A DNA stretch of 35,293 nucleotides from Nanobdellota archaeon (GCA_027623355.1 JAQBWB010000002.1:1-35293), one strand, 5' to 3'. Positions 14,322 to 35,224 are shown, counted from the first letter of the stretch. Translations and numbers: made by a program. Notes: generated from the sequence alone by a model not told the origin.

Positions 14322-14325
14322 AGTA

Positions 14326-15249: not shown

Positions 15250-15272
15250 AGTCGTCTAGGGTTAAAATTCGC

Positions 15273-15280
15273 TATATAAA
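15273..15280 (-). promoter_or_regulatory. TATA box for the GT2-led operon
   Basis: The minus strand reads tttatata, 24 nt upstream of ATG 15249. Confidence 0.5.
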
Positions 15281-15428
15281 CATTTGTTTTCCACCAGTAT
15301 GTTCCACTGGGGGGATGCAAATGTGCTCAATCACCATCAAAGTGGTTATCGACACATTTGTTTTCCACCAGTATGTTCCACTGGGGGGATGCAAATGTGC
15401 TCAATCACCATCAAAGTGGTTATCGACA
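15281..15428. repeat. Perfect tandem duplication, 2 x 74 bp
   Basis: 15281-15354 and 15355-15428 are identical (catttgttttccaccagtatgttccactggggggatgcaaatgtgctcaatcaccatcaaagtggttatcgaca). The pair fills the gap between the hldC stop and the GT2 TATA box. Confidence 0.95.
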
Positions 15429-15435
15429 GCTTCGC

Positions 15436-16855: not shown

Positions 16856-17744
16856 GAGTATCTAACCATGCAAAATAATCTGCAATCGCCTCCTTGAGTT
16901 TCCATTGAGCAGTATATCCTAATGCAGACGTAGCCAAATCAACTGAGGCATGCGTATGCACCTGATACGATGCAGTATACGGGTTAGGAATCCATCTCTC
17001 CGATTTCGAACTACCCAAAACCGATTGTACCATTTGCAATACAGATGCAAACGGCGTTGCAATTCCAGTTCCAACATTATACACTCCAGATGAAGTAGCA
17101 TCTAACGCTTTAACCGTAGCACTAACAACATCCTTAACATAAATATGATCGCGCTTCTGATTCCCGTCTTCAAAAATACCTGGATCCTCACCCGATTGAA
17201 TCTGTTTTCTCCACTGATAAATCATACTCGAGCTAGCTCCTTTGCCAGCCTCTCGCATCCCAAACACATTGAAATAACGCAAGCCAACAACAGTAAGCTG
17301 ACTAAAATGCTCCTTAGCAATAACATCCATCTTCACCTTAGATCGAGAGTAAGCATTCAATGGAGCAACAGATTGACTTTCCTTCATAGGAGTTTCACCA
17401 TTACCATACACTCCAGCAGAGCTAATATACACAAGCTTAGCTTTTTTATCAAGTGCAAGCTTCAACACATTGCGAAACCCAGAAACATTAGCCCTAACCA
17501 TTTCCTCATCATCAGTAAACGTGGTATCCGTAATAGAAGCCTCGTGAATGATAGCATCAAAATCAGAATCTAAAGAAAACGGTTGAGAAACATCAATATC
17601 CAAAATACCGCCATCAAATCCATCTAAATTCTCAACATGACCCGAACTCAAATTATCCAAAACCGTAACATCATGCTTATCCTTCAAAGCATGCACAATA
17701 TTAGAGCCAACAAACCCAGCTCCACCAGTTACTAAAATTTTCAT
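16845..17744 (-). CDS. hldD: ADP-L-glycero-D-manno-heptose 6-epimerase
   Basis: MKILVTGGAGFVGSNIVHAL, VGLRYFNVFGMREAGKGASSSM, FEDGNQKRDHIYVKDV and NVGTG resemble E. coli HldD/RfaD along the whole length. Confidence 0.8.
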   Translation of the reverse strand: MKILVTGGAGFVGSNIVHALKDKHDVTVLDNLSSGHVENLDGFDGGILDIDVSQPFSLDSDFDAIIHEASITDTTFTDDEEMVRANVSGFRNVLKLALDKKAKLVYISSAGVYGNGETPMKESQSVAPLNAYSRSKVKMDVIAKEHFSQLTVVGLRYFNVFGMREAGKGASSSMIYQWRKQIQSGEDPGIFEDGNQKRDHIYVKDVVSATVKALDATSSGVYNVGTGIATPFASVLQMVQSVLGSSKSERWIPNPYTASYQVHTHASVDLATSALGYTAQWKLKEAIADYFAWLDTHER

Positions 17745-18118
17745 TAAACTTCCTCCGGAATCTCTATAGTAGAAAGATCAACAGCACCACTATCCTCACT
17801 TCGATATGAGTCAGAATCTTCGTGATGGGTACTAAATTCAAAAATCTCACTATCCTCCAATCCAGTAAAACGATGGAGTGTATTAGGAGTAATCAATAAG
17901 GACTGACCCGGACGCATAATCTGCCGCTCATCGCCCAATTCCATGAGCACCTTGCCTTTAGTAACGTAAAAAGTCTCATCTTTGTTCTTGTGTTGATGCA
18001 CACTACATCTAAAACCCTTCTTCAATTCCAGAATCTTGCCACAATACTCTTTATTGACAATCCAGACCTCTTTACCCCAAACCTTATCAACTTCTTTGTG
18101 TTTTGTAACAATATCCAT
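17744..18118 (-). CDS. Small cupin, type II phosphomannose-isomerase-like
   Basis: 124 aa. VWGKEVWIVNKEYCGKILELKKGFRCSVHQHKNKDETFYVTKG...LHRF is the PMI-type cupin pattern. Its stop overlaps the hldD ATG as TAATG. Confidence 0.6.
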   Translation of the reverse strand: MDIVTKHKEVDKVWGKEVWIVNKEYCGKILELKKGFRCSVHQHKNKDETFYVTKGKVLMELGDERQIMRPGQSLLITPNTLHRFTGLEDSEIFEFSTHHEDSDSYRSEDSGAVDLSTIEIPEEV

Positions 18119-20232: not shown

Positions 20233-21129
20233 ATGGAAACCACAGATAAGATTTGGATGGATGGAGAGTTAGTAAATTGGCAAGATGCCAAGATTCATGT
20301 TATCAGTCACGCACTCCATTACGGCAGCTCAGTATTCGAAGGAATAAGATGTTATAAAACCGAAAAAGGCACAGCCATTTTTAGACTAAAAGAACATGTA
20401 GAACGTCTCTTCTTATCAGCAGAAACCCTAGCAATGAAGGTACCCTTCTCAAAAGAGCAAATAGAGCAAGCAATCATAGAAACCGTCAAGACAAACAAAC
20501 TAGAAACAGGATACATCCGACCACTAATCTTCTACGGCTATGGCAAAATGGGGCTAGACCCCGTTGGAGCGCCCGTAAATGTAACGATAGCAGTTTGGCC
20601 CTGGGGATCATACCTGGGTGACGAAGCCGTCAAATTAAAAACGGCAGAAACCATCAGACTCCACCCAAAATCATTCAAACCACAAGCAAAAGTAGGCGGA
20701 TTCTATGTTAATTCAATCTATGCCCACCAAGAAGCAAAGAAAGCAGGCTTTAACGAAGCGCTAATGCTTGACCACGAAGGAAACATAGCAGAAGGACCTG
20801 GCGAGAATATTTTCATGATGAAAGACGGAAAAATAATAACTGCAAAAGCAGGATCCATCCTACCTGGAATAACAAGAGACACAATCCTAACAATAGCAAA
20901 AGACAACAACATCGAAATAGAAGAACGCACCGTAACACCAGAAGAACTAAAACAGGCAGACGAAGTATTCATGGTGGGTACCGCAGCCGAGGTAACATTA
21001 GTAGACCAAATAGATGATACTGAAATAAAAAACAACCATACAGAAGAAAAAGCGAAATTCTTCAGAACCACCTACCTTGATATTGTACAAGGAAAGCAAG
21101 ATAAGTACAAAGACTGGCTCACATTCTAA
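20233..21129 (+). CDS. ilvE: Branched-chain amino acid aminotransferase (class IV PLP)
   Basis: HYGSSVFEGIRCY..GTAIFRLKEHVERL, YIRPLIFYG and EGPGENIF match the IlvE pattern. 298 aa. Confidence 0.85.
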   Translation: METTDKIWMDGELVNWQDAKIHVISHALHYGSSVFEGIRCYKTEKGTAIFRLKEHVERLFLSAETLAMKVPFSKEQIEQAIIETVKTNKLETGYIRPLIFYGYGKMGLDPVGAPVNVTIAVWPWGSYLGDEAVKLKTAETIRLHPKSFKPQAKVGGFYVNSIYAHQEAKKAGFNEALMLDHEGNIAEGPGENIFMMKDGKIITAKAGSILPGITRDTILTIAKDNNIEIEERTVTPEELKQADEVFMVGTAAEVTLVDQIDDTEIKNNHTEEKAKFFRTTYLDIVQGKQDKYKDWLTF

Positions 21130-22021: not shown

Positions 22022-25000
22022 TCACTTCTTTCTCTTCAAGTGCCTTCTAACACACATCCGAGTGTAGTGATGCTTTAGATGCACATGTGGATGCAGCACC
22101 TGACGCCACATCAACTTCCAATAGTGCCACGGCTTCTCCCATAGAGTATTTGGAGAGCTCTCCATAAAGTGGCCTACATACAACACATGCATCCGATCAT
22201 GTGCCTTTCGAGCAGCATGCACATTACCTTTCTTCAAATGCCCACGAATAACCTTTCGTAGCATCTTCATCTTAAACAACGGATGATCAAATTGCATAAC
22301 CCGTTTGCGATGCCTCTTAACCCGTTTCCACAGGTAGCGTTTTAGCAAGAAATTATGCTTGCCAGCATCAATCACCAAATAATGTCTGTTCAATTCCCGA
22401 TACAATGCATGTGCCTCCTCAACACGCTTTTTTCGTGTATAATGATTCAACGACTTGTGCACCTTCCAGAACCGTGCAAATGATTTGTTAGTATGCACTA
22501 GAGTGAAGAACACAGCCTTGTTCAACAAGAAGGAAGCTAATATCAGTAAGAAGATTCTAATAATTTGCTTGGGAGTGATTGTTTTGAACGAAAATCCTTT
22601 GAAACAATCAATGGGACAGTTCAGTTCATCCTCTCCCTGTCCACAGACACCGTTACCACATTTACATCCCGTCGCATCAAAGGTAGCATCATCCGAAATC
22701 CGCTGCCCAACCAAGATGTATCTGTCTTTACTAGAGCAAGCATCAATATGTAAGTCATAATACAACGTGTTTCCAACAGCAGTTTCAACTCCCGCAGCTA
22801 TAATTTCCCGAGCTATAATCTTCTCGATAAGTTTTCTTGAAACCTCTTGATCAATCAAACCAGTGTGCGTCACATTAATGTCCCAATAATTAGTACATCT
22901 ATTGTTAATGTATTCATCCCCGATACGCTGAGCGCTTTTAATAGTGACCAAACCATCGTGAGTCTCATTAGTAGCATCAATTTCAAGCAAGTTACCAAAC
23001 TGCTGCGTATTCGTTCCAGCAATAACAAAATAATCAACTCCAGGTAGTCGTGGAGTAACAAGGCCTTCTTTCAACAGATCAATGAGCTGGTTATTAACAT
23101 TAAACAGGTTGTTGTACTTACTTACTTTGTTAACCAAGAACTTATACACCTTCAGATAATTTTCAAGGAACGCTGCACCTTCATTAGGAACACCCACCAA
23201 GATAACTTTTTTCACTTTAGGGATAAAGGTATATTTCTGTGTTACATTATTAGCAACAAACGCATCATACAACGTTTTCTGAGCAACAATCCCCCCTAGA
23301 CTGTGAGCAGCAATGTACAAATTATCAAATTCTTCAACGTTCAACTCAATACTATCCATCAAATCTTGAGTAATATCATCTATTGTACGCGTACTACTAT
23401 ATCCATACGTCCACGTCTGGAACGGCTGCTCAGTAAGCTCGATATCAGCAATAATATCCTCAAACGTATCCGGACTACTAGTAAATCCGTGGACTAATAA
23501 TACGGCATCTCGCGAAGTACCATTATACACTTTCTCGAATGAAGAGTTCACACAGAATTCACAGATAGTTCCCATAATCGTGAATAACCCTACGCTTTCA
23601 TTGTCCAGGTACTGTTCAATCGATTCAATCTCTGCCGTCACCGTACCCGCATCCTTATCAATCACCCCACCTAATGGATTCCATTCATCATTCTGACGAG
23701 CAAAAATTTGCAATCCATCAATATCAATATTCTTAGTTTGATCCTCCAAATAAGCCAATGTCAATGTACTCGTTCCCGTATCCTCAATCCGCAAGTGCGA
23801 CGGGTTACCAATAATTTTCAGGAACTCATTGACTGCCTCTTCTACTGTTTCATTACGTGCAACGAATTCAACACCATCAACCGTAACATTACCTTCAGAA
23901 AGATTAACATCTGTCGTATCTGCTTCAAGTTCCGTCCGTTTGAATTTGCCTGTATCCGAATCAAAGCACTCCAAGCGGGAAGTCACATTGATAAGAGTCG
24001 GAACACACACATCTCCAGTACATCTGAGCATCGTCAAGTTCACATACTGCTCAGGGATACTTACCGTAAAGTCAATCTCATGCCCAGCACACTGGATTCG
24101 GAACGGATCCAATACTACTTGGAATCCTTCAGGAACATCCGTTTCCTCAACTGTCGACTGATGAATACTAACATCTCCCCCCTTCCCGCCTGAAACCCGT
24201 CTACAAGGAAGTGTTGTAGCACCTAACTGGAGACCATTTTTAGATCCAGGAGATGCCAAAGAAACCGATGCAGCAGCAGCCGCAGGTGCAGCCGCAGGTG
24301 CAGCTGCAGCCGGAGCCGGAGGTGCAGGCGAATAGCTCACAGGACACGTGCCACAATCTCCCATACAGTTACTACACGTTTCAGCCCCGTTACAAGTGCC
24401 ATCTCCACACCAATCACAATCAGCCTTACAGCTAGTAGCCTCACCCCCACCACAATACCCATCGCCACAGTAAGAGGAAGCAGCGACAGTAACCCTAACC
24501 TGTTCTGAGAAATAATACTCAGAATCATTGAAACCGATAGTTACGATAGACGAACCAGTATAATCCAGTGCAGGAGTAAATGTAGCAATCGAGGTTGTTT
24601 GATTAATCACCACATTAACTGTACTCGAAGTATTTCCAGTAACATTAAACGACATAGGGTCCCCATCTTGATCCGCATAATATTGCAACAACGTAATCGA
24701 TTTAGGCGTATTCTGCCCGACACTTAGCGTAAGCAAGCTATTATTGATGAACGGAGGACTATTCAAAATCGTCAATGTCTCACTAAACACGGGCGTCCCA
24801 TTATCAAACGTATCATCTGCCGTTGCCGATACATTCACGACATCCCCCTTAGAAAAGTTACTAGCACTAAACGTACCACTTATGGCATAGCTGCCTTGAG
24901 TTAAAGAAACAACCGTCTCATTTCTAGCAGGTGTACCATTCACATACCATCTAAAAGTAATACTTCCGCCATCCCCATCATCATCAGAATAGTTAGCCTG

Positions 25001-28000
25001 CACCCACAAATCATCCACAGATCGTACATTAGAATCATTCAACGTAACGTTATCCGCTACTGGAGGACTATTCACAATAGTAATCTCTGCACTGGCTACA
25101 GCAGGAGAGGTCCCTGCCACAGTATCCTTAGCAGTAGCTGTAACATATACAGTATTACCTCGAGAATAAAGCACACCAGTAAAGTTACCTACCGCGGTAC
25201 CTCCCGTGAGAATGGTACTAGCAGTCTTACTAGAGCTAAAGATACTATTTACATACAATGCAAATGTAACATTAGAAGTATCCCCATCCGGATCCGTAAC
25301 GGTAACATTCACACCGACAATATCTTTAGCCTTCACCTGCGTGTTGTTCAATAAAGGAACACCAACAGAAGGATACCCATTAGCGATCGTCGTAACATCG
25401 CTCCAATAAGTATCAGAAATATCGGTGCTATCATTCGCAACAATCGTCACATTAATCTCATCAGTTCGATTATAAAAACTGAGGCTAAGGTTCGATGACA
25501 CAAAGGTACCATTTGTAAGATTAAAAATAGTTTCATTAAAGATAGCAGTAGCATTCAGGTACCACGTAAATGTCAAACTCCCATTATCTCCATCGTTATC
25601 GATAAAGGTAGCATTAATGGAGGCATTTTCAGAGGAATTGAAAAACGGATTAACAAAAGTTGCAAAGTTAAAGGAAATATTTTGAACAAGGGGGGGACCA
25701 TTCGCAACCGTCAACGTAAGACTGGTAATCGTAGTATTATCTTCAGTATCATTTGCAACCACGGTCAAATTAATCTTATCATTCCTGTTAAAGTTAGCAC
25801 TATCAAGAGTAGAGAACACAGTAGCTCCACTAGCACCCAAAGCAATGAATTTATTAGATTGAACAACAACATTATTTACCCTCCAATATAGGTTAGCGGT
25901 TCCAGTATCTCCATCATAATCCGAATAATTAGCCTCCCCATACAAATCATCATTCGAATTAGGAGCACTATTATTAATTCCAGGTCTGGAAACATTTGAG
26001 GGCGTATTCGTAACCGTAGCATTCGTCCCCTTAATAGCCGCAACATTGTTAGTAGCATCCGTGGCATTAGCATAGGAAACAATCACTGTATTTTTCATGT
26101 AATTGTTATAACTAAAGTTCACCACAACAACCCCTCCGGATACAACATGATACACCGTCCTCCTATCCTCAATTCTTCCACTCACACTAAGATATATCGT
26201 AACATTCCCATTATCTCCATCAATATCGGTATAGGTAGTATTGGCAGTTACATTCGCACGCGAAATAGTTGTAGAAGTATTAATAATCGGCGCAGTAACC
26301 ACTGGAGCACCATTCGCAACCGTTAAACTCTGACTATTCACAACTGTTGAATTATCACTACTATCATTAGCATATACCGAGAAATTAATGATTAATCCTT
26401 TTGTAAGATTAGTACGCGACAGGTTCGATCGAGCAATAGTACTACTCAACACCGGCTGAATCGTTTCATTGAAAATTGCAGTACCATTCAAGAACCACGT
26501 AAAGTGCACACTACCATTATCTCCATTCGCATCTGTAAACGTTACATTCCCATACAAATCATCATGCGTTGTAATGGTCAGGGTATTATTCAAGGTAGCA
26601 TTAGCAAGCGTAGGAGCAATATTGCTTCCAGAGGCGACACAACTACTTCCGTCACAAGTACCATAATCAGGATCAAAGTTTCCATTTCTAAGAGTAGCAT
26701 CACAAAAATCACCATTACTACAAGAGGTGCTACAAGCATCTGCATAGATAGAACCTGCAGTCCCATTACACAAATAGCCTGAGGTCCAACATACGCTAGA
26801 TCCATCACACTGCCCATCCTGCAAGAAACCACTACCATTGATACTACTATCGCACGCAAATCCTCCTTCAGTTCCACTACAGGCGTTGAAATAATTCGCA
26901 GAGGAAATATCACTCACCGCGCACGCCTCCAATTTACAACTCATAGTTATGATGCCGGCAGATGAGCAAGCACTTGAAACACACACCCCAGTCCCATTCG
27001 GCTGATACCCTGAAGCAGAGCTGTCTGCACAAATCATCCCCTCACTCCCAGCAGTACAACTAGAATTCTCATTTCCTGAATGGAAATTAACTGCAACCCC
27101 TCCCGTCAAATTATCACCATATTCGCCTGATGAAGTACCAACCGAACAGGTAGCAGACGTATAACCATTCCGAGCACAAATGCCTTTTAACGTAGAGTCA
27201 GAATAATAATCACAACTTGCACCCAAGTGATCAATACATTCAGTTACATTATGACATCTATCAGCAGTACTAATCTGACTGTCCCCACTTAAATCAATGC
27301 ACGTATTAGTAGTATTACCAAACGACACATTAACGTAACATCCCTCCCCCCAATTCTCAGCCACACTCAACCGACAAGCAATCCCGCTAGCACTATTCTG
27401 TGCCATCGAGGTAATATTACCAAACGTAATGTTCTGATAGTGTCTACCTTCTGTAATAACATCAACCGTATGCCTACCAGTTGTATTACACGAATAATCC
27501 AAGAACGAATATCCTGCAACAGCATATACTCTGTCAACCGATTGAGCCAACGTAATCAAGCTACCATTCTCCAACAACAGATAACTATTCGCAGAAGAAA
27601 AATTATTGATCCGATCAAATAGCACATCCTCTCCACACCGCAATGTGTTCAACTTCAGATCATCCTGTGTATACGGATTATCTTCAGTCATCTCTCGATA
27701 CCGAGTTCCATTTACCGTAAAGATCGTCAAATTAGCATTACCTGAAGTCTCAAACTTAACCGTCCACTCCCCGCCCAATGCAGGATAACTCTGCACATTC
27801 AAAATTGTTAAACTAATCTCATACGTCTGATTCGAAAGGTGAGGTACAACCCATTCAATCTCCTCTAGCAATCCATTATGATCACGATCAACACCCACAA
27901 AGTCAACCTCCACTCGACCATCCGGAGTAATCCAATGTAAGATAACATTTGCCGCCTCAATCTCTCTCGGCAATGAGGAATAAGCAACAATATCTTCGTA

Positions 28001-29992
28001 GTGCACATCCGAACTAATCACAACCTCTTTAGTAGTGTTCGTCAACATTCTCTCCGATGCCCGAGGTGCCTCCGTGTAATATTCAACAGCTACCTCGCTA
28101 GCAATCTCTCCAATAATCACCTCAGAAACACCCGCATCTGAAGAGGTATCCGCAATAGCAAATCCAGTTACCGTAACTGATTTCAACCAAGCAAAGAATC
28201 TTGGCAACAACCCATCGCCAACCGTGCTAGCAACTACATAACCCGTCAACACATTTTTCTCATTTCTAAGAGCAACCAATTCCCGATTAATGTCTCCCAC
28301 AGAAGAAATCGCAGTAGGACTATCTCGAACGAGTGCAAGTTTCTCATTCGCTAATCTTTCCTCAATTTTTTCAATATGATCAATCCGCTTCTCAGCCCGG
28401 AACAAGCTCAAGTTCTTGAGCCTTCCCGCATCCCTAACAACCACTTTCTCCAAGCTCCTATTATCAGAAAGATCAATCACCGAGATATTCAAAATAGCCG
28501 AACTAATATTCACGCTCAGGTTAATTACATCCTCAGACGAATTAACAAAGGTGACCCACCGTACAGGCTCATTCAACCGCACCTTGGGCTTTTCAGTAAC
28601 GACAACCACATCAACATCATCCATGCTAGCTGGACGCGAAACTACATCTATCCACATCACAGGCGAGGTTGCCGAGTAATGCCCATCTGTTGCCGTAAAG
28701 TACAAGCCACCACGTCCAATCTCCTCAGTTGTAATCGTAACAATACTCCCATCTAACACAACATCAACAATCCCCTCAACAAAGTAGGAGTAATTCAATG
28801 CATCTCTATCCTCATCCACAAAATAATCATTAAGATCAATGTAGTGTACATCTCCGGCGTACCACGTTCTATTAGAAAAGTTTTGAACCAATACTGGAGG
28901 ATACAAAGAGATATTGAATTCCTGTAAAACGGTGTAGTGAACCGAATCCACATCCAAGGTACCAGCATCAACCTCAACCCTAAAGGTAATCAAAGAAGCA
29001 TTAACATTCAATAGACAACTTTCAACACAACGTCCCTCAAAGACTATTCTTCGCTCAATAAATTCAGCAGTCGAATACTCCACGTCAGAATACCGAATAT
29101 CACTAGTAACCGCCTCCAGATCAAGCGCATAATGTACCAACCGACTTGAAATAGTATTCATAGTCTCCATTGCATACCGATCTGCCGTTAGATAGAATGG
29201 TGCATCCCACGATCCAACAGCCTCCAATCCAACAAATCCACAACAATCAACAGCTCCCTGACAAGCTACCGGTTTGCTATTAACACTCCAAATGCTACAT
29301 AATCTCTCTGTATCCACCACACTATCGGTTTCAACACTATACGTAAAATATTCATCCGTGTGCGCAACCAACCTATCGGGAGCGATAAGACGTATATCGA
29401 GAGTAACATTCAAAGCAACCTCCGCAACAGTGCTTTCATTTTCAACTTCACCATCATCCACAACTAATCCCGTAATCGAGCTTAATCCCGCATAAGAGCT
29501 ATCATACACCAAGTACGATTCATTACCTACGTCCGCATATACTCTAGCTACTCCATCCTTACTCAAACTCCCACTAATACTCAAACTACTCAAACTGCCT
29601 GGATGCAATAACTCAAATGTATAACTAGCATTCCCACTAAACCGCTCACCAACCGTTTCCTCAAACCCAACCTGTTCACTAATAGTTACAAATCCAACAA
29701 ACGGCTTGAAGAATGCAAACATCGACAGCGCAACAATTACGAGCAGAAACGCAACAACCTGTGCAACCTCTTTCTTCGCAGCAATCTTAGCCCGATGACT
29801 AAACAATTTTTTCCATTCAGCTCGAGAACGATCCGACACACTCTCCCGCATCAAGCTTCGATAGTTATGAGGAGTAATCTCCCTATTTCGATATTCTTTC
29901 TCAATCGAAGAAATATCCTTAGCTATCGCCCTTTCGAGATCAGCACGGCTACAGGAATCTACTCCTCTTTCAGTAAATCTCCTATCTGACAT
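22022..29992 (-). CDS. Giant (2656 aa) two-TM-anchored, sequon-rich surface protein with PKD-like repeats, Cys-rich modules and an alpha/beta-hydrolase domain
   Basis: One uninterrupted ORF. The N-terminal 76 aa are polar, followed by a TM segment (aa 77-95). Seven modules carry DxDGD motifs (TDANGDNG, TDIDGDNG, SDYDGDTG, IDNDGDNG, TDPDGDTS, SDDDGDGG, ADQDGDPM). There are two Cys-rich regions and a Pro/Ala linker. The hydrolase motifs are LLVHGF...AAHSLGG...THDG. A second TM segment and a 157-aa His/Lys/Arg-rich tail follow. Confidence 0.85.
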   Translation of the reverse strand: MSDRRFTERGVDSCSRADLERAIAKDISSIEKEYRNREITPHNYRSLMRESVSDRSRAEWKKLFSHRAKIAAKKEVAQVVAFLLVIVALSMFAFFKPFVGFVTISEQVGFEETVGERFSGNASYTFELLHPGSLSSLSISGSLSKDGVARVYADVGNESYLVYDSSYAGLSSITGLVVDDGEVENESTVAEVALNVTLDIRLIAPDRLVAHTDEYFTYSVETDSVVDTERLCSIWSVNSKPVACQGAVDCCGFVGLEAVGSWDAPFYLTADRYAMETMNTISSRLVHYALDLEAVTSDIRYSDVEYSTAEFIERRIVFEGRCVESCLLNVNASLITFRVEVDAGTLDVDSVHYTVLQEFNISLYPPVLVQNFSNRTWYAGDVHYIDLNDYFVDEDRDALNYSYFVEGIVDVVLDGSIVTITTEEIGRGGLYFTATDGHYSATSPVMWIDVVSRPASMDDVDVVVVTEKPKVRLNEPVRWVTFVNSSEDVINLSVNISSAILNISVIDLSDNRSLEKVVVRDAGRLKNLSLFRAEKRIDHIEKIEERLANEKLALVRDSPTAISSVGDINRELVALRNEKNVLTGYVVASTVGDGLLPRFFAWLKSVTVTGFAIADTSSDAGVSEVIIGEIASEVAVEYYTEAPRASERMLTNTTKEVVISSDVHYEDIVAYSSLPREIEAANVILHWITPDGRVEVDFVGVDRDHNGLLEEIEWVVPHLSNQTYEISLTILNVQSYPALGGEWTVKFETSGNANLTIFTVNGTRYREMTEDNPYTQDDLKLNTLRCGEDVLFDRINNFSSANSYLLLENGSLITLAQSVDRVYAVAGYSFLDYSCNTTGRHTVDVITEGRHYQNITFGNITSMAQNSASGIACRLSVAENWGEGCYVNVSFGNTTNTCIDLSGDSQISTADRCHNVTECIDHLGASCDYYSDSTLKGICARNGYTSATCSVGTSSGEYGDNLTGGVAVNFHSGNENSSCTAGSEGMICADSSASGYQPNGTGVCVSSACSSAGIITMSCKLEACAVSDISSANYFNACSGTEGGFACDSSINGSGFLQDGQCDGSSVCWTSGYLCNGTAGSIYADACSTSCSNGDFCDATLRNGNFDPDYGTCDGSSCVASGSNIAPTLANATLNNTLTITTHDDLYGNVTFTDANGDNGSVHFTWFLNGTAIFNETIQPVLSSTIARSNLSRTNLTKGLIINFSVYANDSSDNSTVVNSQSLTVANGAPVVTAPIINTSTTISRANVTANTTYTDIDGDNGNVTIYLSVSGRIEDRRTVYHVVSGGVVVVNFSYNNYMKNTVIVSYANATDATNNVAAIKGTNATVTNTPSNVSRPGINNSAPNSNDDLYGEANYSDYDGDTGTANLYWRVNNVVVQSNKFIALGASGATVFSTLDSANFNRNDKINLTVVANDTEDNTTITSLTLTVANGPPLVQNISFNFATFVNPFFNSSENASINATFIDNDGDNGSLTFTWYLNATAIFNETIFNLTNGTFVSSNLSLSFYNRTDEINVTIVANDSTDISDTYWSDVTTIANGYPSVGVPLLNNTQVKAKDIVGVNVTVTDPDGDTSNVTFALYVNSIFSSSKTASTILTGGTAVGNFTGVLYSRGNTVYVTATAKDTVAGTSPAVASAEITIVNSPPVADNVTLNDSNVRSVDDLWVQANYSDDDGDGGSITFRWYVNGTPARNETVVSLTQGSYAISGTFSASNFSKGDVVNVSATADDTFDNGTPVFSETLTILNSPPFINNSLLTLSVGQNTPKSITLLQYYADQDGDPMSFNVTGNTSSTVNVVINQTTSIATFTPALDYTGSSIVTIGFNDSEYYFSEQVRVTVAASSYCGDGYCGGGEATSCKADCDWCGDGTCNGAETCSNCMGDCGTCPVSYSPAPPAPAAAAPAAAPAAAAASVSLASPGSKNGLQLGATTLPCRRVSGGKGGDVSIHQSTVEETDVPEGFQVVLDPFRIQCAGHEIDFTVSIPEQYVNLTMLRCTGDVCVPTLINVTSRLECFDSDTGKFKRTELEADTTDVNLSEGNVTVDGVEFVARNETVEEAVNEFLKIIGNPSHLRIEDTGTSTLTLAYLEDQTKNIDIDGLQIFARQNDEWNPLGGVIDKDAGTVTAEIESIEQYLDNESVGLFTIMGTICEFCVNSSFEKVYNGTSRDAVLLVHGFTSSPDTFEDIIADIELTEQPFQTWTYGYSSTRTIDDITQDLMDSIELNVEEFDNLYIAAHSLGGIVAQKTLYDAFVANNVTQKYTFIPKVKKVILVGVPNEGAAFLENYLKVYKFLVNKVSKYNNLFNVNNQLIDLLKEGLVTPRLPGVDYFVIAGTNTQQFGNLLEIDATNETHDGLVTIKSAQRIGDEYINNRCTNYWDINVTHTGLIDQEVSRKLIEKIIAREIIAAGVETAVGNTLYYDLHIDACSSKDRYILVGQRISDDATFDATGCKCGNGVCGQGEDELNCPIDCFKGFSFKTITPKQIIRIFLLILASFLLNKAVFFTLVHTNKSFARFWKVHKSLNHYTRKKRVEEAHALYRELNRHYLVIDAGKHNFLLKRYLWKRVKRHRKRVMQFDHPLFKMKMLRKVIRGHLKKGNVHAARKAHDRMHVLYVGHFMESSPNTLWEKPWHYWKLMWRQVLHPHVHLKHHYTRMCVRRHLKRKK

Positions 29993-30278
29993 GCTTCACC
30001 TTTTTCGTAGCCTTACTATATGCAGTCCACACCGTTTTGTAATCTCGATGCAATACTGCTGCAATCTCCTTGAACGACAATCCCTGCTCATCCTTGAGAT
30101 ACAAACAAACAGCCTCCTGCATACCTAATTCAGGTCTAAACGCAGAAACAGGAACGCTTTTTTCATTCGAACCAACCAACTCAGAAAATAATTCGGGATG
30201 TTCAATCAACTGCTCCTTGAGCTTACCCAAAAGAACATCAATAGCCGCAATCTGACGCTCCTTCAACTTACCGACCAT
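29982..30278 (-). CDS. Small HTH protein (sigma-70 region 4 / LuxR-type-like), paralog 2
   Basis: 98 aa. LGMQEAVCLYLKDEQGLSFKEIAAVLHRDYKTVWTAYSKATKKV fits the pattern of a helix-turn-helix protein. It overlaps the giant gene start by 11 nt. Confidence 0.6.
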   Translation of the reverse strand: MVGKLKERQIAAIDVLLGKLKEQLIEHPELFSELVGSNEKSVPVSAFRPELGMQEAVCLYLKDEQGLSFKEIAAVLHRDYKTVWTAYSKATKKVKHVR

Positions 30279-30528
30279 GCTTCACCTTAGCATTAAAGTT
30301 AGCACTCCACACTGTCTTGTAATCTCGATGTAACAATGCAGCAATCTCCTTGAACGACTTCCCTTTCTTCACTAAATCACTACACACCGCCTCCTGCATA
30401 CCTAATTCCGCAGAAAACACAGATAACGGAATTTCAGACGGAACAGAGTCAGTTTCATCAATCAAAATCTTTCGTAACCTAGAACAAAGTACCTCAATAG
30501 CCTTTTTTTTCGGTGTAACCGAATCCAC
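30268..30528 (-). CDS. Small HTH protein (sigma-70 region 4 / LuxR-type-like), paralog 1
   Basis: 86 aa with a GTG start. LGMQEAVCSDLVKKGKSFKEIAALLHRDYKTVWSANFNAKV is close to paralog 2. It overlaps paralog 2 by 11 nt through the same AAGGTGAAGCATG junction. Confidence 0.55.
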   Translation of the reverse strand: MDSVTPKKKAIEVLCSRLRKILIDETDSVPSEIPLSVFSAELGMQEAVCSDLVKKGKSFKEIAALLHRDYKTVWSANFNAKVKHGR

Positions 30529-30550
30529 ACTTCTTAATTAATAAGATTTA

Positions 30551-30558
30551 CTTATAAA
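30551..30558 (-). promoter_or_regulatory. TATA box for the HTH-HTH-giant protein operon
   Basis: The minus strand reads tttataag, 23 nt upstream of the GTG start at 30528. Confidence 0.45.
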
Positions 30559-30594
30559 TATTCCTAATAATTAGCTTAAAATGAACATAAATAC

Positions 30595-30630
30595 ACAATA
30601 ATCAACAATAATCAACAATAATCAACAATA
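30595..30630. repeat. 10-bp tandem repeat, atcaacaata x 3.6
   Basis: acaata is followed by three perfect copies of atcaacaata (30601-30630). The period is one helical turn. The tract lies about 40-80 bp upstream of the TATA box. Confidence 0.9.
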
Positions 30631-30654
30631 GTGTTCTTATCTAATAAGAACACT
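30630..30654. promoter_or_regulatory. Perfect 11-bp-arm palindrome agtgttcttat-cta-ataagaacact
   Basis: It directly abuts the 10-bp repeat tract. It has the same arm-cta-arm layout as the palindrome at 18132-18150. Confidence 0.5.
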
Positions 30655-30692
30655 AAACTAAGAGAAATTGCAAAAATAAGGAAAAAAGACAC

Positions 30693-30825: not shown

Positions 30826-31812
30826 CTAAGCAAAACGACTAATCTTCAAAAATACAAAGAGTACATATGCAAAAATAAGCAAAACACCCTTCCACATCTC
30901 CCCTCTACCAATCTGACCTTTGTGCCAGATCAATCCTAAAGCAAGCAACGTAACAACGAATAGATAAGGGATATCAAAGCGAAGTAGATCAGGATGAACT
31001 AATATTCCTGTTCCAGAGGCTATTGCTCCTACCCCTAAAGCAAGCATCGGATTCGTGATATTGCTGCCAACGATCGTACCGAGTGAAATACCCTGGGCCT
31101 TCTGCAACGCAGCTCGAACCGAAGTTGATAATTCAGGCAAACCTGTTCCGACACCCACAATCAAAACCCCAATGAAACTCTGGCTCACTCCCCAAAGTCC
31201 TGCCAGCTTAATTGCACTCCCTACAACTAATTCAGTAGAGACAAAAAGAATACCAAAACTAAGAATACAAAGCCCCCCATTCTGTAAATAATGCATAATA
31301 CCTTCTCCTTTAACCTTCGTCGCCTCAATTTCTTTTTTACTTTGCTTCACAAGAGAGCTATCTCGAGTAAGTAATCCTAAATAACCAAGATACAATATTA
31401 TCATCACCATTCCTTCCCAGAACTCAAACACGTTACCGGTAAGACTAAACACATACAATAAGCCGAGTGCAAAAAGAACCATGGGTCCATCACGAGTAAA
31501 TAACGATTTATCTGCATACAACACACCAAGTAATGCAGTAATTCCTAAAATAAAAGTAATCTGAGTAATATCGCTACCCACATTAGTACCCATAGCAATA
31601 CCACTAGCCTCAATTCCTGAACGAATCTTCAATCCAGAGGTAAAGTTAGTCATAATTTCTGGTATAGAAGTCCCAATAGAGATAATAGTCAATCCCACCA
31701 GCGTATCAGAAATATTCAGCAATCGAGCAATACGCTTAGCAGCATCCACCAAGTATCCCGATCCCAGGTACAATCCCACAATCCCCGCCAACATAAAAAA
31801 GAGTAAACTCAT
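30826..31812 (-). CDS. Ca2+/cation antiporter (CaCA family, YrbG/NCX_Mj-like)
   Basis: 328 aa with about 10 TM helices. Both alpha-repeat signatures are present: ISIGTSIPEIMT and GVGTGLPELSTS. Confidence 0.8.
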   Translation of the reverse strand: MSLLFFMLAGIVGLYLGSGYLVDAAKRIARLLNISDTLVGLTIISIGTSIPEIMTNFTSGLKIRSGIEASGIAMGTNVGSDITQITFILGITALLGVLYADKSLFTRDGPMVLFALGLLYVFSLTGNVFEFWEGMVMIILYLGYLGLLTRDSSLVKQSKKEIEATKVKGEGIMHYLQNGGLCILSFGILFVSTELVVGSAIKLAGLWGVSQSFIGVLIVGVGTGLPELSTSVRAALQKAQGISLGTIVGSNITNPMLALGVGAIASGTGILVHPDLLRFDIPYLFVVTLLALGLIWHKGQIGRGEMWKGVLLIFAYVLFVFLKISRFA

Positions 31813-32702: not shown

Positions 32703-33278
32703 TTATTCTTCAACAATAATTTCGCCACGCATAGATTCTCTATCAGTAAATATCAAATCAGTATACACAAATGTTCCAGGTTTCTCGAAAGTATGGCTAA
32801 ATTGCTCCCCTCTAAAAAACCGTTCACTCCTAAACTCTTTGTTATAAGAAATAAGCAGATGAAATACCCCTCCAATCTTAAACTGATCATTATTCTTCCA
32901 GATAATAGTATCCCCCACCTTAATCGTAAGTTTTGAAGGCTTTAAGCGCAATGCCTCTATATTAACAATGTACGTCTCGCCAGTCGGTTTGTCTTCAGTA
33001 GCATTAACAACCACTTCATCAGCCTCATTCTCTACCTCAACTACAGTATCTTCTACTACAGTATCTTCTACTACAGTATCTTCTACTACAGTATCTTCTA
33101 CTACAGTATCTTCTACTACAGAATCACTAGAATCCTCAACAACTACTTCATCAACCACATCAGAAACAACACTCTCAGTAGATCCACTCTTAATAGAAAC
33201 ATCAGTAGGATTCTGACAACCCAGAACTACAAAAACTAGAACAATAAGTGCTATGGAAGGACTCCAGCGCATCTTCAT
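32703..33278 (-). CDS. Putative lipoprotein with VEDTV tandem repeats and a cupredoxin-like C-terminal domain lacking Cu ligands
   Basis: The signal peptide ends in the lipobox-like VLGC. An acidic Val/Asp/Glu linker follows. The C-terminus LTIKVGDTIIWKNND...FSHTFEKPGTFVYTD...MRGEIIV follows the cupredoxin pattern, but the Cys and the second His positions are not conserved. Confidence 0.5.
   Translation of the reverse strand: MKMRWSPSIALIVLVFVVLGCQNPTDVSIKSGSTESVVSDVVDEVVVEDSSDSVVEDTVVEDTVVEDTVVEDTVVEDTVVEVENEADEVVVNATEDKPTGETYIVNIEALRLKPSKLTIKVGDTIIWKNNDQFKIGGVFHLLISYNKEFRSERFFRGEQFSHTFEKPGTFVYTDLIFTDRESMRGEIIVEE
33041..33120. repeat. 15-bp tandem repeat x5.3 inside the lipoprotein gene
   Basis: ctacagtatcttcta occurs as five perfect copies at 33041-33115, followed by a partial copy. 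On the minus strand it encodes (VEDTV)5. Confidence 0.95.
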
Positions 33279-33352: not shown

Positions 33353-35224
33353 ATGGAACATTCTCTATTTCCTTTCGACGAAATAAGGCCGATTCAATCG
33401 GACATGATTAATGATGTCAAAAGCGCAATAGGGGCTAAACAACATCTTATCGCCCATGCCCCAACCGGACTAGGAAAAACAGCAGCATCCCTAGCGCCTG
33501 CACTAGAATACGCAAAAAAGAACGGATTAAGGATTTTTTTTCTAACTTCCCGTCACACTCAACACCATATCGCAATTGAAACGCTAAAAGCAATAAAGAA
33601 CAAGCACGGAACCAAAATCACCTGTGCAGATCTCATAGGGAAGCAATGGATGTGCTCCCAACCGAATGCAGGCGCACTTTATAGCAACGATTTCCAAGAC
33701 TATTGTAAAAAATTACGAGAAGAAAACCAGTGTGAGTTCTACACCAACACCAAAAAACCTGCAGGCATCCCTACACTACAAGCAGAGACTGCCCTACATG
33801 ATTTAGGCATCAAAAGCCCGATGCACGTAGAAGAGGTAATAGAGCACTGCAAAAAGAATAAGTTATGTCCTTACTATACAGCAGAACTGCTTTCAAAAAA
33901 GGCAGATGTCATCATCGCAGATTATTTCTACATGTTTCACCCTCAAATCCGAGATACCTTCATGAATAAAATCGAGGCAGAGCTCGAAAAGTCAATCATT
34001 ATCATCGATGAAGGCCACAATCTCCCAAAAAGGTGTAGAGAATTACTTTCTCACAATCTAACCAATGTAATGATAGATCGAGCAATCAAAGAGGCCCAAA
34101 AATACTTCCTAGAAGAGCCAGAAAAACTCCTCAATCATGTTCGCGATGCACTTCAATCTGCTTCCAAAGTACTTGAAACAAAAGAGGAGGCATTAGTAGA
34201 TAAAGAAGATTTCGAAAAGCCCATCAACGATCAAGCGGACTATCAAATCGTCATCACCAAGCTCCACGATGTGGCAGATGAAATCAGAAAGAAGCAAAAG
34301 AACAGCTACATCGGTTCCATCGCATCTTTCCTAGAGGCCTGGACCGGCCAAGACTACGGATTCACCAGAATCATCCAACAAAAGTCATCCTACGATAAAT
34401 CAATGATACAACTAAGCTACAACTGCATCGATCCCTCCATCGTTACGAAAGAAGTCATCGAACGAGCCCATTCAATTATCTGCATGTCCGGCACCATCAC
34501 ACCTACCGAGATGTATTCAGATATCCTAGGATTCCCTCAAGCACGTGAAAAGCAATATCCCTCCCCCTTCTCTCAAGAAAATAGGTTAGCGATTATAATC
34601 CCCCACACCACAACAAAATACACTAGCAGATCAGAGAAAGAATACGAAAAGATGGGAAAAATAGCGGCAGACATCGCAAATACCGTTCCCGGCAACACAC
34701 TCATCTTCTTCCCAAGCTACGCATTACGAAATAGCGTCTATCCTTATTTCCAGGAGTGGTGCCAAAAAGAAACCATGATCGAGCGCCAAGGTCTATCAAA
34801 AGAAGACAAACAACATATCCTAACCCGCTTCAAAGAACACAAGGCACTTGGAGCTGCATTACTAGCAGTAGCAGCCGGATCGTTCGGAGAGGGAATAGAT
34901 CTTCCAGGAGATTTATTGAAATGCGTCATCGTTGTCGGTATCCCTCTAGAAAAACCATCTCTAGAAGTAAAAGAGGTCATGTCCTACTATCAAGATAAGT
35001 ATGGTCGTGGTTTACAATACGGCTACATCTTTCCAGCAATGATCAAAACCCTACAAAATGCAGGACGTTGCATCAGATCGCAAAGCGATCGTGGCGCAAT
35101 CATCTTCCTAGATGAACGCTACCAACTCCCCATGTACAAAGAGTGCTTCCCAGAAGAGTACAACGTCCAAGTCCTAGGAGATTACAAGAAAAGCCTCCAA
35201 GAATTCTTCGCAAAAAAGCAATAA
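33353..35224 (+). CDS. xpd: XPD/Rad3-family (DinG-like) Fe-S cluster DNA helicase
   Basis: AHAPTGLGKT is the Walker A motif and IIIDEGHNL is the DEAH-box variant. Cysteines are spaced as in the XPD 4Fe-4S domain (WMCSQ, DYCKK, NQCEFY, LCPYY). The C-terminal motifs FGEGIDLPG and GRCIRS are present. Confidence 0.85.
   Translation: MEHSLFPFDEIRPIQSDMINDVKSAIGAKQHLIAHAPTGLGKTAASLAPALEYAKKNGLRIFFLTSRHTQHHIAIETLKAIKNKHGTKITCADLIGKQWMCSQPNAGALYSNDFQDYCKKLREENQCEFYTNTKKPAGIPTLQAETALHDLGIKSPMHVEEVIEHCKKNKLCPYYTAELLSKKADVIIADYFYMFHPQIRDTFMNKIEAELEKSIIIIDEGHNLPKRCRELLSHNLTNVMIDRAIKEAQKYFLEEPEKLLNHVRDALQSASKVLETKEEALVDKEDFEKPINDQADYQIVITKLHDVADEIRKKQKNSYIGSIASFLEAWTGQDYGFTRIIQQKSSYDKSMIQLSYNCIDPSIVTKEVIERAHSIICMSGTITPTEMYSDILGFPQAREKQYPSPFSQENRLAIIIPHTTTKYTSRSEKEYEKMGKIAADIANTVPGNTLIFFPSYALRNSVYPYFQEWCQKETMIERQGLSKEDKQHILTRFKEHKALGAALLAVAAGSFGEGIDLPGDLLKCVIVVGIPLEKPSLEVKEVMSYYQDKYGRGLQYGYIFPAMIKTLQNAGRCIRSQSDRGAIIFLDERYQLPMYKECFPEEYNVQVLGDYKKSLQEFFAKKQ

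What the first reader, a model, noticed from the sequence alone, without database searches (positions are those of the whole stretch)
22022..30528. Candidate novel system: two duplicated sigma-r4/LuxR-like HTH proteins translationally coupled to a giant two-TM surface protein
Three genes form one tightly coupled unit. HTH1 (30268-30528) overlaps HTH2 (29982-30278) by 11 nt, and HTH2 overlaps the giant gene by 11 nt. Both overlaps use the same junction, AAGGTGAAGCATG, which encodes the K-V-K-H C-terminus, a GGTGA Shine-Dalgarno sequence and the next ATG. The small gene was therefore tandemly duplicated as an ATG-to-ATG unit. The two paralogs keep near-identical C-terminal HTH halves (LGMQEAVC...SFKEIAA.LHRDYKTVW) but have diverged N-terminal halves. 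The giant protein has a 76-aa polar cytoplasmic N-terminus before its first TM segment, and a basic cytoplasmic tail after its last. This layout parallels bacterial ECF sigma / anti-sigma pairs, where a small region-4-type DNA binder is co-transcribed with a membrane protein whose short cytoplasmic N-terminus sequesters it and whose large outer domain senses the environment. My hypothesis is a contact- or surface-state-sensing circuit. The giant adhesin/hydrolase would hold one or both HTH proteins at the membrane and release them on host contact or on damage to the ectodomain. I know of no described archaeal system of this kind.
Basis: inference. Interest (0 to 1): 0.75.

Follow-up and report, generated by a model that had tools for sequence, protein, structure and literature searches.

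The report
Self-regulated DPANN giant surface-protein operon
Two small DNA-binding proteins sit in front of a 2,656-residue surface protein in one archaeal operon. This pairing, plus a matching DNA palindrome at the promoter, recurs across tiny symbiotic (DPANN) archaea, and in many relatives the DNA binder is fused to the inner tail of the giant protein.

Summary
HTH1, HTH2 and the giant gene lie on the minus strand and overlap by 11 nt at two identical AAGGTGAAGCATG junctions (2 found, 0.07 expected). The small proteins belong to a large, unnamed DPANN family whose C-terminal half superposes on ECF sigma region 4. They lack region 2, so they are not sigma factors.

In nearly all of about 40 independent loci, the family gene overlaps the start of a membrane-anchored surface-protein gene. 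These downstream proteins often share about 800 N-terminal residues with the window's giant.

New here is a 15-bp palindrome, TCTTAT-N3-ATAAGA, that flanks the TATA box of these operons. There are 35 hits in 29 HTH promoters and none in 195 control promoters. The window has one copy between the TATA box and the leaderless GTG start, and one 121 nt upstream.

In the fused two-domain subfamily the site is directional instead. At least 27 of the top 150 family representatives are giants (up to 5,919 aa) carrying 2 or 4 HTH copies after their last membrane segment.

Best reading: a dedicated autoregulator of a surface-protein operon.

The parts
30635..30649 (.). Distal operator: perfect palindrome TCTTATTAGATAAGA, 121 nt upstream of the HTH1 start. 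The extended inverted repeat covers 30629-30655.
   Evidence: The same motif lies at -101 in L001 and -91 in L007 (10-bp steps). Caveat: also flagged as a terminator-like hairpin.
30591..30630 (-). 10-bp tandem repeat (TATTGTTGAT x3 plus TATTGTGTAT) between the distal operator and the core promoter. It sets their spacing in whole helical turns.
   Evidence: Absent in L001/L007.
30552..30558 (-). TATA box TTTATAA, preceded by a purine-rich BRE-like AGGAA. Its centre lies 27 nt upstream of the GTG start, implying a leaderless transcript.
   Evidence: conserved GGAA(A)TATTTATAA across loci. The position rule comes from general knowledge of archaeal promoters.
30532..30546 (.). Proximal operator TCTTATTAATTAAGA (1 mismatch), between the TATA box and the start codon.
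   Evidence: The equivalent site lies at -19 +/- 2 in 15 other loci.
30268..30528 (-). HTH1: 86 aa, GTG start, member of the DPANN region-4-like HTH family.
   Evidence: 82 bits to the family profile; dN/dS 0.29.
30276..30288 (-). Junction 1, AAGGTGAAGCATG: the KVKH codons of HTH1, a GGTGA Shine-Dalgarno and the ATG of HTH2.
29982..30278 (-). HTH2: 98 aa, member of the same family, passes the Pfam Sigma70_r4_2 cutoff.
   Evidence: 122 bits; dN/dS 0.14.
29990..30002 (-). Junction 2: the identical 13-mer, carrying the ATG of the giant gene.
22022..29992 (-). Giant surface protein, 2656 aa. It has 98 N-glycosylation sequons, 58 Cys and six ~103-aa repeats with a DxDGD motif.
   Evidence: dN/dS 0.13.
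29765..29992 (-). Cytoplasmic N-domain (aa 1-76), with the motif EITPHNYRSLM...RAEW shared with relatives (ITYSEYE..GKT..EW..YD).
29672..29767 (-). TM1 (aa 76-95) followed by the family motif KPFVGFVTISEQ (consensus P..ITG[FYL] v T[IV] s . E).
27383..29938 (-). Conserved N-terminal module (aa 19-870), 30-40% identical to the HTH-linked proteins of L015, L016, L020, L021, L027, L030 and L036. It includes IEWVVPHLSNQTYE.
23159..23524 (-). Possible alpha/beta-hydrolase region with a GxSxG motif (AHSLGG, aa 2229-2234). Tentative.
   Evidence: (sub-threshold Pfam hits, E 0.02-0.15). No PDB sequence match.
22496..22564 (-). TM2 (aa 2477-2499, 23 hydrophobic residues).
22025..22492 (-). Basic, His-rich cytoplasmic tail (156 aa; K22, R19, H19, D3, E5). 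It sits where relatives carry fused HTH arrays.
   Evidence: Not HTH-like.

Best explanation
The three genes form one autoregulated operon of a type conserved in Nanoarchaeota/Woesearchaeota-like DPANN archaea.

HTH1 and HTH2 belong to a DPANN-specific family of ~97-aa DNA-binding proteins. Their C-terminal half has the sigma-70 region 4 fold, but they are not sigma factors.

Inferred mechanism:
- The proteins bind as dimers (homodimers or an HTH1/HTH2 heterodimer) to the 15-bp palindrome TCTTAT-N3-ATAAGA.
- One copy lies between the TATA box and the leaderless GTG start, where a bound protein would block assembly of the archaeal transcription machinery.
- A second copy lies 121 nt upstream, phased by 10-bp repeats.
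- The regulators therefore set the level of their own transcript.
- Through two identical 11-nt overlaps, translation of the regulators is coupled to that of the giant glycosylated surface protein.

Shown: gene layout, fold, family membership, conserved linkage, and motif enrichment and position.

Inferred: that the HTHs bind this motif, the sign of regulation, and the single transcript.

The input signal is unknown. Because relatives fuse the HTH to the giant's cytoplasmic tail, the state of the giant protein at the membrane is the most likely input.
For: **Fold and family**
- HTH2 scores 30.6 bits on Sigma70_r4_2 (cutoff 25.7).
- The AF2 model has pLDDT 83.5. Foldseek matches ECF sigma region 4 structures at rmsd 0.5-0.8 A over 46 residues.
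- The family holds 2175 clusters at 50% identity with E<=1e-3. The recognition helix RDYKT[IV]W is nearly invariant.

**Linkage**
- In the loci with room downstream, a same-strand ORF overlaps the HTH stop by 4, 8, 11 or more nt. 28 of 32 such ORFs have an N-terminal TM segment.
- 13 of 32 are homologous to window giant aa 70-870, with E from 1e-12 to 1e-183.

**Operator**
- 39 sites with <=1 mismatch occur in 265 kb of 26 loci. 32 lie within 160 nt upstream of the HTH start, at about -60 and -19, flanking the TATA box.
- Extended to 29 loci, there are 35 hits in the HTH promoters and 0 hits in 195 control upstream regions of the same loci.
- In the 35-kb window, the two best matches (0 and 1 mismatch) both lie at this promoter. 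The only other hit at <=2 mismatches is a 1-mismatch site inside a gene at 16426.
- Operator symmetry tracks protein architecture. Single-domain loci have a palindrome. Fused two-domain loci have a directional TCTTACATATTAAGTA in same-orientation arrays of 5-8 sites.
- The AF2 model of a two-domain member is a compact unit (pTM 0.75), with a short strand at the IPVSIF motif in each half.

**Selection**
Both paralogues and the giant gene are under purifying selection.
Against: - No binding data exist. Another factor could recognise the palindrome.
- The window lacks the canonical -60 site. Its distal palindrome also looks like a terminator-type hairpin downstream of the Na/Ca exchanger gene.
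- The whole-window count at <=2 mismatches is not above chance (3 found, 3.4 expected). The support comes from position and cross-locus conservation.
- Loci were collected through the HTH, so the reverse linkage (giant to HTH) is untested.
- Some downstream partners are not giants: 253-520 aa in L032 and L059-L061.
- Co-transcription is inferred from the overlaps only.
Confidence: 0.62

Rival explanations
1. Membrane-coupled signalling. The giant protein controls the HTHs by holding them at the membrane on its cytoplasmic N-domain or basic tail. In fused relatives it carries them covalently. It releases them, or lets them act, when the ectodomain engages a host or is damaged. Autoregulation would then be the output arm of a contact sensor.
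For: - Rosetta-stone fusions: at least 27 of the top 150 family representatives are 597-5919-aa proteins with 2 or 4 HTH copies at the extreme C-terminus, after a hydrophobic segment and an RRKKK cluster.
- L047, L049, L051 and L053 show the same fusion in genomic context.
- These fused giants share the window giant's N-domain, TM1 motif and IEW..PHLSNQTYE module.
- The window giant has a normal TM2 and a 156-aa basic tail in the position of the fused HTHs.
- Castelle et al. 2021 noted sigma-70-like genes in Woesearchaeota with no anti-sigma partner.
Against:
- The N-domain is missing in many members, and C-terminal anchors are missing in several full-length ones.
- The tail is unrelated to the HTH.
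- The hydrophobic segment before the fused HTHs is short (about 13-16 residues, often with a charged residue), so its membrane-spanning topology is inferred.
- No conserved protease neighbour was seen.
- Fused loci also keep a free two-domain HTH gene upstream.
Confidence: 0.22
2. The small proteins are not promoter-specific regulators. Instead they act on the giant gene's expression in another way, for example as processivity or anti-termination factors for very long transcripts, or as factors that help the nascent N-terminal anchor of the downstream protein.
For: - The link is always to the start of a protein with an N-terminal TM and xTG motif, through translational coupling.
- Sigma region 4 contacts RNA polymerase in bacteria (general knowledge).
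Against: - The downstream partner can be as short as 253-520 aa, so transcript length is not the common factor.
- The invariant recognition helix, paired with a promoter-specific palindrome whose symmetry follows protein architecture, points to sequence-specific DNA binding.
Confidence: 0.1
3. They are true bacterial-type sigma factors acquired by DPANN archaea, as automatic annotation suggests ('sigma24 family').
For: - One source names a close homologue of HTH2 (P0002, 85% identical) a sigma24 family protein.
- The best structural matches are ECF sigma region 4.
Against: - The proteins are only 86-98 aa, with no region 2 hit in Pfam or NCBIfam.
- All NCBIfam sigma hits fall far below cutoff (19-21 bits against 43-184).
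- Archaea lack the bacterial core polymerase.
- The motif is a palindrome flanking a TATA box, not a -35 element.
Confidence: 0.02

Closest known systems
ECF sigma factor / transmembrane anti-sigma pairs (e.g. SigE-RseA, AlgU-MucA, SigW-RsiW)
   Same: - A region-4-type HTH is co-transcribed with a membrane protein that has a short cytoplasmic N-terminus and a large external part.
- The best structural matches of the HTH are ECF region 4 domains.
   Different: - No region 2, no anti-sigma domain, and an archaeal host with TBP/TFB promoters.
- The HTH is predicted to bind a palindrome as a dimer rather than a -35 element within a holoenzyme.
- The gene order is HTH first, with overlap into a giant protein of 0.25 to more than 3 thousand residues.
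Membrane-tethered transcription factors (ToxR/CadC type; proteolytically released SREBP/ATF6/Notch type)
   Same: In the fused relatives, a DNA-binding module is joined through a hydrophobic segment to a large external domain.
   Different: - In the window the HTHs are separate proteins.
- The fused forms have two membrane segments, ectodomains of up to ~5,700 residues, and 2 or 4 tandem HTHs.
- No cleavage site or protease partner is known.
Small archaeal region-4/LuxR-like HTH proteins (Tfx, UPF0251/DUF134, HTH_10 of Bat)
   Same: Small archaeal proteins with a region-4-like HTH that act, or are thought to act, as ordinary regulators (own knowledge; one search lists such domains in archaea).
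   Different: - No significant match to those families: PRK04217 scores E 0.023, far below cutoff, and there is no GerE hit.
- Distinct conserved motifs (P.S.F..LGMLE, RDYKTIW) and a fixed genomic partner.
'Sigma-70' family fam00359 of Woesearchaeota (Castelle et al. 2021, PMC8204110)
   Same: Sigma-70-annotated genes prevalent in Woesearchaeota, with no anti-sigma factor and an unclear mechanism. This is probably the same or an overlapping family.
   Different: Identity with fam00359 was not checked. That paper, as read through the passages returned for 'sigma', 'anti-sigma', 'large protein' and 'surface', reports no linkage to surface-protein genes, no operator and no fusions.

Membership tests
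ECF (group 4) sigma-70 factor | Region 2 domain (Sigma70_r2) that binds core polymerase and the -10 element | tested here: not met
   No region 2 hit at E<=1 in Pfam or NCBIfam. The proteins are only 86 and 98 aa.
ECF (group 4) sigma-70 factor | Region 4 HTH domain | tested here: met
   HTH2 scores 30.6 bits on PF08281 (cutoff 25.7). HTH1 is sub-threshold at 16.9 bits. Foldseek matches region 4 of SigE, AlgU, SigR and SigD at rmsd 0.5-0.8 A.
ECF (group 4) sigma-70 factor | Whole-protein score above the family cutoff (TIGR02937 sigma70-ECF) | tested here: not met
   19.0 bits against a cutoff of 42.9.
Transmembrane anti-sigma factor | N-terminal cytoplasmic anti-sigma domain (e.g. zf-HC2, RskA or RseA_N type) | tested here: not met
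   No Pfam or NCBIfam hit in giant aa 1-76. The N-domain is absent from many homologous partners. The structure was not modelled.
Transmembrane anti-sigma factor | Direct binding of the partner HTH protein | not testable with these tools
No multimer tool was available.
LuxR/GerE HTH (PF00196) | Significant match to the GerE profile | tested here: not met
   No GerE hit at E<=1. RcsB, DosR and SdiA appear only as lower-ranked fold matches.
Membrane-tethered transcription factor | DNA-binding domain and membrane segment in one polypeptide | tested here: not met
   Not met in the window, where the genes are separate. Met in relatives L047, L049, L051, L053 and P0125-P0258.
DPANN ~97-aa region-4-like HTH family (defined here, alignment A3) | Full-length match to the family profile, including P.S.F..LGM.E and RDYKT[IV]W | tested here: met
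   HTH1 82.4 bits, HTH2 122.1 bits; alignments.
DPANN ~97-aa region-4-like HTH family (defined here, alignment A3) | Stop codon overlapping the start of a gene for an N-terminally anchored surface protein | tested here: met
   11-nt overlap in the window. The same holds in most loci with enough downstream sequence to judge.
DPANN ~97-aa region-4-like HTH family (defined here, alignment A3) | Palindrome TCTTAT-N3-ATAAGA at its own promoter | tested here: met
   Sites at 30532-30546 and 30635-30649. Cross-locus enrichment with 0 hits in 195 control regions.
HTH-linked giant surface-protein family (defined here) | TM1 followed by the xTG[FYL] motif and the ~800-aa conserved N-terminal module | tested here: met
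   Window aa 76-107 and 19-870. BLASTP E from 1e-70 to 1e-178 against L015, L016, L020, L021, L027, L030 and L036.

The most novel reading that the evidence does not exclude
DPANN archaea use their giant surface proteins as contact or integrity sensors wired directly to transcription. A family-specific region-4-like HTH is either fused to the giant's cytoplasmic tail, or, as in this window, made as free proteins that the giant's cytoplasmic segments capture. It reaches the palindromic operators only when the ectodomain state changes. That would be an archaeal counterpart of anti-sigma or Notch/SREBP-type signalling, and would answer why 'sigma factors' exist in Woesearchaeota without anti-sigma partners.
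Probability: 0.22. Interest if true: 0.9.

Novelty: new variant of a known kind. Interest (0 to 1): 0.72.

Why it matters
DPANN archaea live attached to other cells, and their giant surface proteins are thought to mediate that contact. Almost nothing is known about how these genes are controlled.

This analysis turns a puzzling annotation ('sigma factors' in archaea, with no partners) into a concrete and widespread module:
- a defined protein family,
- a predicted operator,
- a fixed promoter layout,
- a fixed target gene family.

It also identifies natural fusions that place the DNA binder on the inner tail of the giant protein.

Every element can be tested with recombinant proteins and short DNA fragments, without culturing the organism. 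If the membrane coupling is real, it would be a new way for a cell to report the state of its surface to its genome.

Tried and rejected
- **True sigma factor:** rejected. No region 2, and scores far below cutoffs.
- **LuxR/GerE, Tfx or UPF0251 membership:** no significant hits.
- **Phage or defence origin:** nothing in PHROGs beyond a weak sigma hit, and nothing meaningful in PADLOC. No relatives of the HTH or the giant in IMG/VR.
- **Basic tail as a degenerate HTH:** rejected (hhalign probability 0.1).
- **PDB sequence relatives:** none for the HTH family or for the hydrolase-like region. The 'hydrolase' label therefore stays tentative.
- **Whole-fold match for the two-domain model:** none; only single region-4 units match.
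- **Homologue search with giant aa 1-900:** Reverse linkage could not be tested for this reason.
- **L009 as a single-copy example:** withdrawn. Its next gene starts MADNARK, like HTH2 (MADKVRD).
- **Bacterial-type promoter scan:** uninformative for an archaeon.
- **Literature:** five searches found no description of the linkage, the operator or the fusions.

Full report
**1. Observation**

The minus strand carries three ORFs: 30268-30528 (GTG start, 86 aa; HTH1), 29982-30278 (98 aa; HTH2) and 22022-29992 (2656 aa). Each junction overlaps by 11 nt and uses the same 13-mer, AAGGTGAAGCATG. That 13-mer occurs exactly twice in the window, against 0.07 expected and 0 of 100 shuffles reaching two.

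The two small proteins are 52-55% identical and align over their full length. Compared with orthologues in a related marine lineage (L001), dN/dS is 0.29 for HTH1, 0.14 for HTH2 and 0.13 for the giant gene. All three are therefore functional genes.

The giant protein has these features:
- a polar 75-residue N-terminus;
- a hydrophobic segment at aa 76-95;
- about 2,380 residues with 98 N-glycosylation sequons and 58 cysteines;
- a 23-residue hydrophobic segment at aa 2477-2499;
- a 156-residue tail rich in K, R and H.

**2. Genomic setting**

The neighbours are ordinary cellular genes:
- a Na/Ca exchanger (30826-31812);
- an XPD-type helicase (33353-35224);
- a class IV aminotransferase (20233-21129);
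- a long glycan-biosynthesis cluster in the first 18 kb.

The closest relatives come from marine metagenomes and share the order exchanger, HTH1, HTH2, giant. A Woesearchaeota genome (L016) shares the order XPD, 209-aa protein, HTH, giant. Named family members come from Woesearchaeota, Nanoarchaeota and Nanoarchaeia bins. The window is therefore from a DPANN archaeon of that group. This is an inference from relatives; the window holds no tRNA or rRNA gene.

**3. What the small proteins are**

- HTH2 passes the curated Pfam threshold for Sigma70_r4_2 (30.6 bits against 25.7). HTH1 gives only sub-threshold HTH hits.
- All NCBIfam sigma-factor hits are far below cutoff and cover region 4 only.
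- An AlphaFold2 model of HTH2 built on a 47-sequence family alignment has mean pLDDT 83.5. It shows two N-terminal helices, a linker, and a three-helix C-terminal unit.
- Foldseek places the last ~46 residues on region 4 of ECF sigma factors (SigE, AlgU, SigR, SigD) at 0.5-0.8 A rmsd.
- No region 2 is present.

They are region-4-like HTH proteins, not sigma factors.

Profile searches define a well-conserved family of about 97 residues, with the motifs P.S.F..LGMLE....YL.D...LSF.EIA..L.RDYKT[IV]W..Y.KAKKK. The family has 2175 clusters at 50% identity with E<=1e-3, and 1868 with E<=1e-10. It has no specific Pfam model, no PDB sequence relative, and no name beyond automatic labels such as 'sigma24 family' or 'UPF0251'.

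**4. Conserved linkage**

I collected loci through the HTH from species-representative genomes (5 loci), metagenomes (40 loci) and look-ups of individual family members.

In most loci that extend beyond the HTH stop, a same-strand ORF starts 4, 8, 11, 14 or 17 nt before that stop. Its size ranges from 253 aa to more than 3,330 aa, the larger ones being truncated by the locus end. In L059 an 8,120-aa gene follows further down the same strand.

Of 32 non-redundant downstream proteins, 28 have an N-terminal hydrophobic segment within the sequence available. Most of these carry a motif P..ITG[FYL] directly after it, followed by a conserved v-T-[IV]-s-x-E-x-x-[FY] stretch.

Window giant aa 19-870 aligns at 30-40% identity with the partners in L015, L016, L020, L021, L027, L030 and L036, with E from 1e-70 to 1e-178. 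The ectodomains beyond that module differ:
- LamG in L014;
- DUF285 in L015;
- subtilase in L047;
- a possible alpha/beta hydrolase in the window.

The cytoplasmic N-terminal extension ranges from none to more than 450 residues. Where it is present, it shares a motif (..ITYSEYE..GKT..EW..YD) with window aa 37-60.

The pair is thus a conserved two-gene cassette with a variable outer part. One limit applies: every locus was found through the HTH, so I could not measure how often family giants lack an HTH. The one search that could have addressed this returned nothing.

**5. A conserved operator (new)**

Aligning the regions upstream of the HTH genes showed a fixed layout. A 15-bp palindrome, TCTTAT-N3-ATAAGA (core CTTA-N5-TAAG), appears on both sides of a TATA box.

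- In 26 single-domain loci (265 kb) there are 39 sites with at most one mismatch. Of these, 32 lie within 160 nt upstream of the HTH start. They cluster at -60 +/- 2 and -19 +/- 2. Only one site is clearly elsewhere.
- As a like-for-like control, 195 upstream regions of other ORFs of at least 150 aa in the same loci hold no site. The 29 HTH promoters hold 35.
- Three further single-domain loci fetched afterwards (L058-L060) show the same layout; the two-domain locus L061 shows a directional variant of it.

In the window, the proximal site (30532-30546, one mismatch) lies between the TATA box (30552-30558) and the GTG start (30528). The perfect site lies at 30635-30649. The only other hit at <=2 mismatches in 35 kb sits inside a gene at 16426.

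The TATA centre is 27 nt from the start codon. By the usual archaeal spacing this implies a leaderless transcript and puts the proximal site where the initiation complex assembles. A protein bound there should repress (inference from known archaeal repressors).

The window clade lacks the canonical -60 site. Instead it has the distal palindrome at -121 (window), -101 (L001) and -91 (L007). These are steps of 10 bp, produced in the window by a 10-bp tandem repeat at 30591-30630. Caveat: the window's distal site is part of a 12-bp-stem inverted repeat followed by a T-rich run, which a terminator scan also picks up.

**6. Operator symmetry follows protein architecture**

In the subfamily where two HTH units are fused into one 155-180-aa protein, the promoter motif is not a palindrome. 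It is a directional 16-mer, TCTTACATATTAAGTA, which keeps the CTTA-N5-TAAG core. It occurs in same-orientation arrays of 5-8 sites, spaced about 43-46 or 55-58 bp apart, immediately upstream of the HTH gene. About 40 of 47 sites in 131 kb lie there.

The two repeats of these proteins have different recognition helices (..RD.RTIW.. and ..R[DN]YKTI[WY]..).

An AF2 model of a two-domain member is confident (pLDDT 87.2, pTM 0.75). It shows a short strand at the conserved IPVSIF motif of each half. No solved structure matches the whole arrangement.

A symmetric site for a single-domain protein and an asymmetric site for a fused pseudo-dimer is what one expects if the operon's own HTH binds the motif. 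This is the main argument for assigning the operator to the HTH. It remains an inference.

**7. Copy number and fusions**

Two HTH units recur in several forms:
- two genes, in the window clade and independently in L033;
- one two-domain protein, which is common;
- three or four repeats in one protein.

L007/L008 carry a single gene whose N-half equals L001 HTH1 and whose C-half equals L001 HTH2. This could be a recombinational collapse at the shared ELGMQEAVC segment or an assembly artefact.

The most striking result concerns the giants. Among the 150 best-scoring family representatives, at least 27 are proteins of 597-5,919 aa with 2 or 4 HTH units at the extreme C-terminus.

The sequences read (P0125, P0131, P0133, P0135, P0144, P0157, P0183, P0245 and others) share the window giant's N-domain, its TM1 and xTG motif, and the ..IDYIEW.VPHLSNQTYE.. 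module. They then end in ..YST..G.WTIRI, followed by 8-10 hydrophobic residues, an RRKKK cluster and the HTH array.

Four loci show the fusion in context: a free two-domain HTH gene, then a 1,494-1,785-aa surface protein ending in a fused two-domain HTH, then a ~340-aa membrane protein gene.

Such fusions are classical evidence that two proteins act together. They place the HTH on the cytoplasmic side of the giant's last membrane segment. Caveat: that segment is short (about 13-16 residues, often with one charged residue), so the topology is inferred from the basic cluster that follows. The window giant's own TM2 is a normal 23-residue segment. Its tail shows no similarity to the HTH.

**8. 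Most likely mechanism**

The best-supported reading (confidence about 0.6) is a dedicated autoregulator.
- HTH1 and HTH2 bind the palindromes at their own promoter.
- The proximal site gives negative feedback.
- The two identical overlaps couple synthesis of the regulators to that of the giant surface protein.

It lacks any direct test, and its proposed N-terminal docking domain is not universal. Other roles, such as processivity or help with membrane insertion, fit the data less well (about 0.1). A true sigma-factor role is excluded by domain content.

**9. Comparison with known systems and novelty**

The module works somewhat like an ECF sigma / anti-sigma pair or a membrane-tethered transcription factor, but it is a member of neither. 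Region 2 and an anti-sigma domain are absent, and in the window the DNA binder is not tethered.

Castelle et al. 2021 (PMC8204110) reported sigma-70-annotated genes prevalent in Woesearchaeota, found no anti-sigma factors and called the mechanism unclear. I did not check whether their family is this one.

Five full-text searches found no description of the linkage to giant surface proteins, of the operator, or of the fusions. I therefore rate the finding as a new variant of a known kind: an autoregulated HTH operon, with a membrane-coupled form in relatives. Interest is 0.72, because the module is widespread, sharply defined and directly testable.

Noticed in passing
L001-L006, 3' end of the HTH1 orthologue (e.g. 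L001:9940-10011): The C-terminus of HTH1 carries a variable tandem repeat of 30 nt (VKDGSVKYAK, 1 to 3 extra copies between assemblies). This is a repeated copy of the gene junction itself. The window has none.
   Followed up: partly
L007:923-1192 and L008:55-324: A single HTH gene that is an exact chimera of the L001 HTH1 N-half and HTH2 C-half, followed by the giant gene with the same 11-nt overlap. It is either a recombinational deletion between the paralogues or an assembly collapse.
   Followed up: partly
window 15280-15428: A perfect 74-bp tandem duplication (2.0 copies, 100% match) in the gap between ORFs 14326-15249 and 15436-15915 of the glycan cluster.
   Followed up: no
window 33040-33125: A 15-nt repeat (5.7 copies, 98% match) inside ORF 32703-33278, a 191-aa protein with a weak plastocyanin-like copper-binding hit.
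   Followed up: no
window 1-18118: A long cluster of sugar-nucleotide and glycan genes (epimerases/dehydratases, GT2, GT4, MBOAT, DegT aminotransferase, GtrA-like, cupin). It may supply the glycans for the 98 sequons of the giant protein.
   Followed up: partly
L047:3228-3577 (similar in L043, L045, L049, L051, L053): Eight same-orientation copies of TCTTACATATTAAGTA in about 350 bp, arranged as four repeated site-TATA-site units upstream of the two-domain HTH gene.
   Followed up: partly
L059:13698-20291: A gene called as 8,120 aa lies on the same strand a few genes after the HTH and its 518-aa partner. P0133, a fused family member, is 5,919 aa.
   Followed up: no
window 24266-24328 (giant aa 1889-1909): A Pro/Ala linker encoded by a GCAGCC-type repeat separates the repeat-rich ectodomain from the C-terminal hydrolase-like part.
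   Followed up: no
L014:13739-15232: A second paralogue of the surface protein (53% identical N-terminus) follows the first directly, with no HTH gene of its own. One HTH can therefore precede two family genes.
   Followed up: no
window 27293-29992 (query): The word-indexed homologue search with giant aa 1-900 returned no hit at all, not even the window's own protein, after filling its 8000-candidate list. This is probably an effect of the low-complexity, sequon-rich sequence.
   Followed up: no
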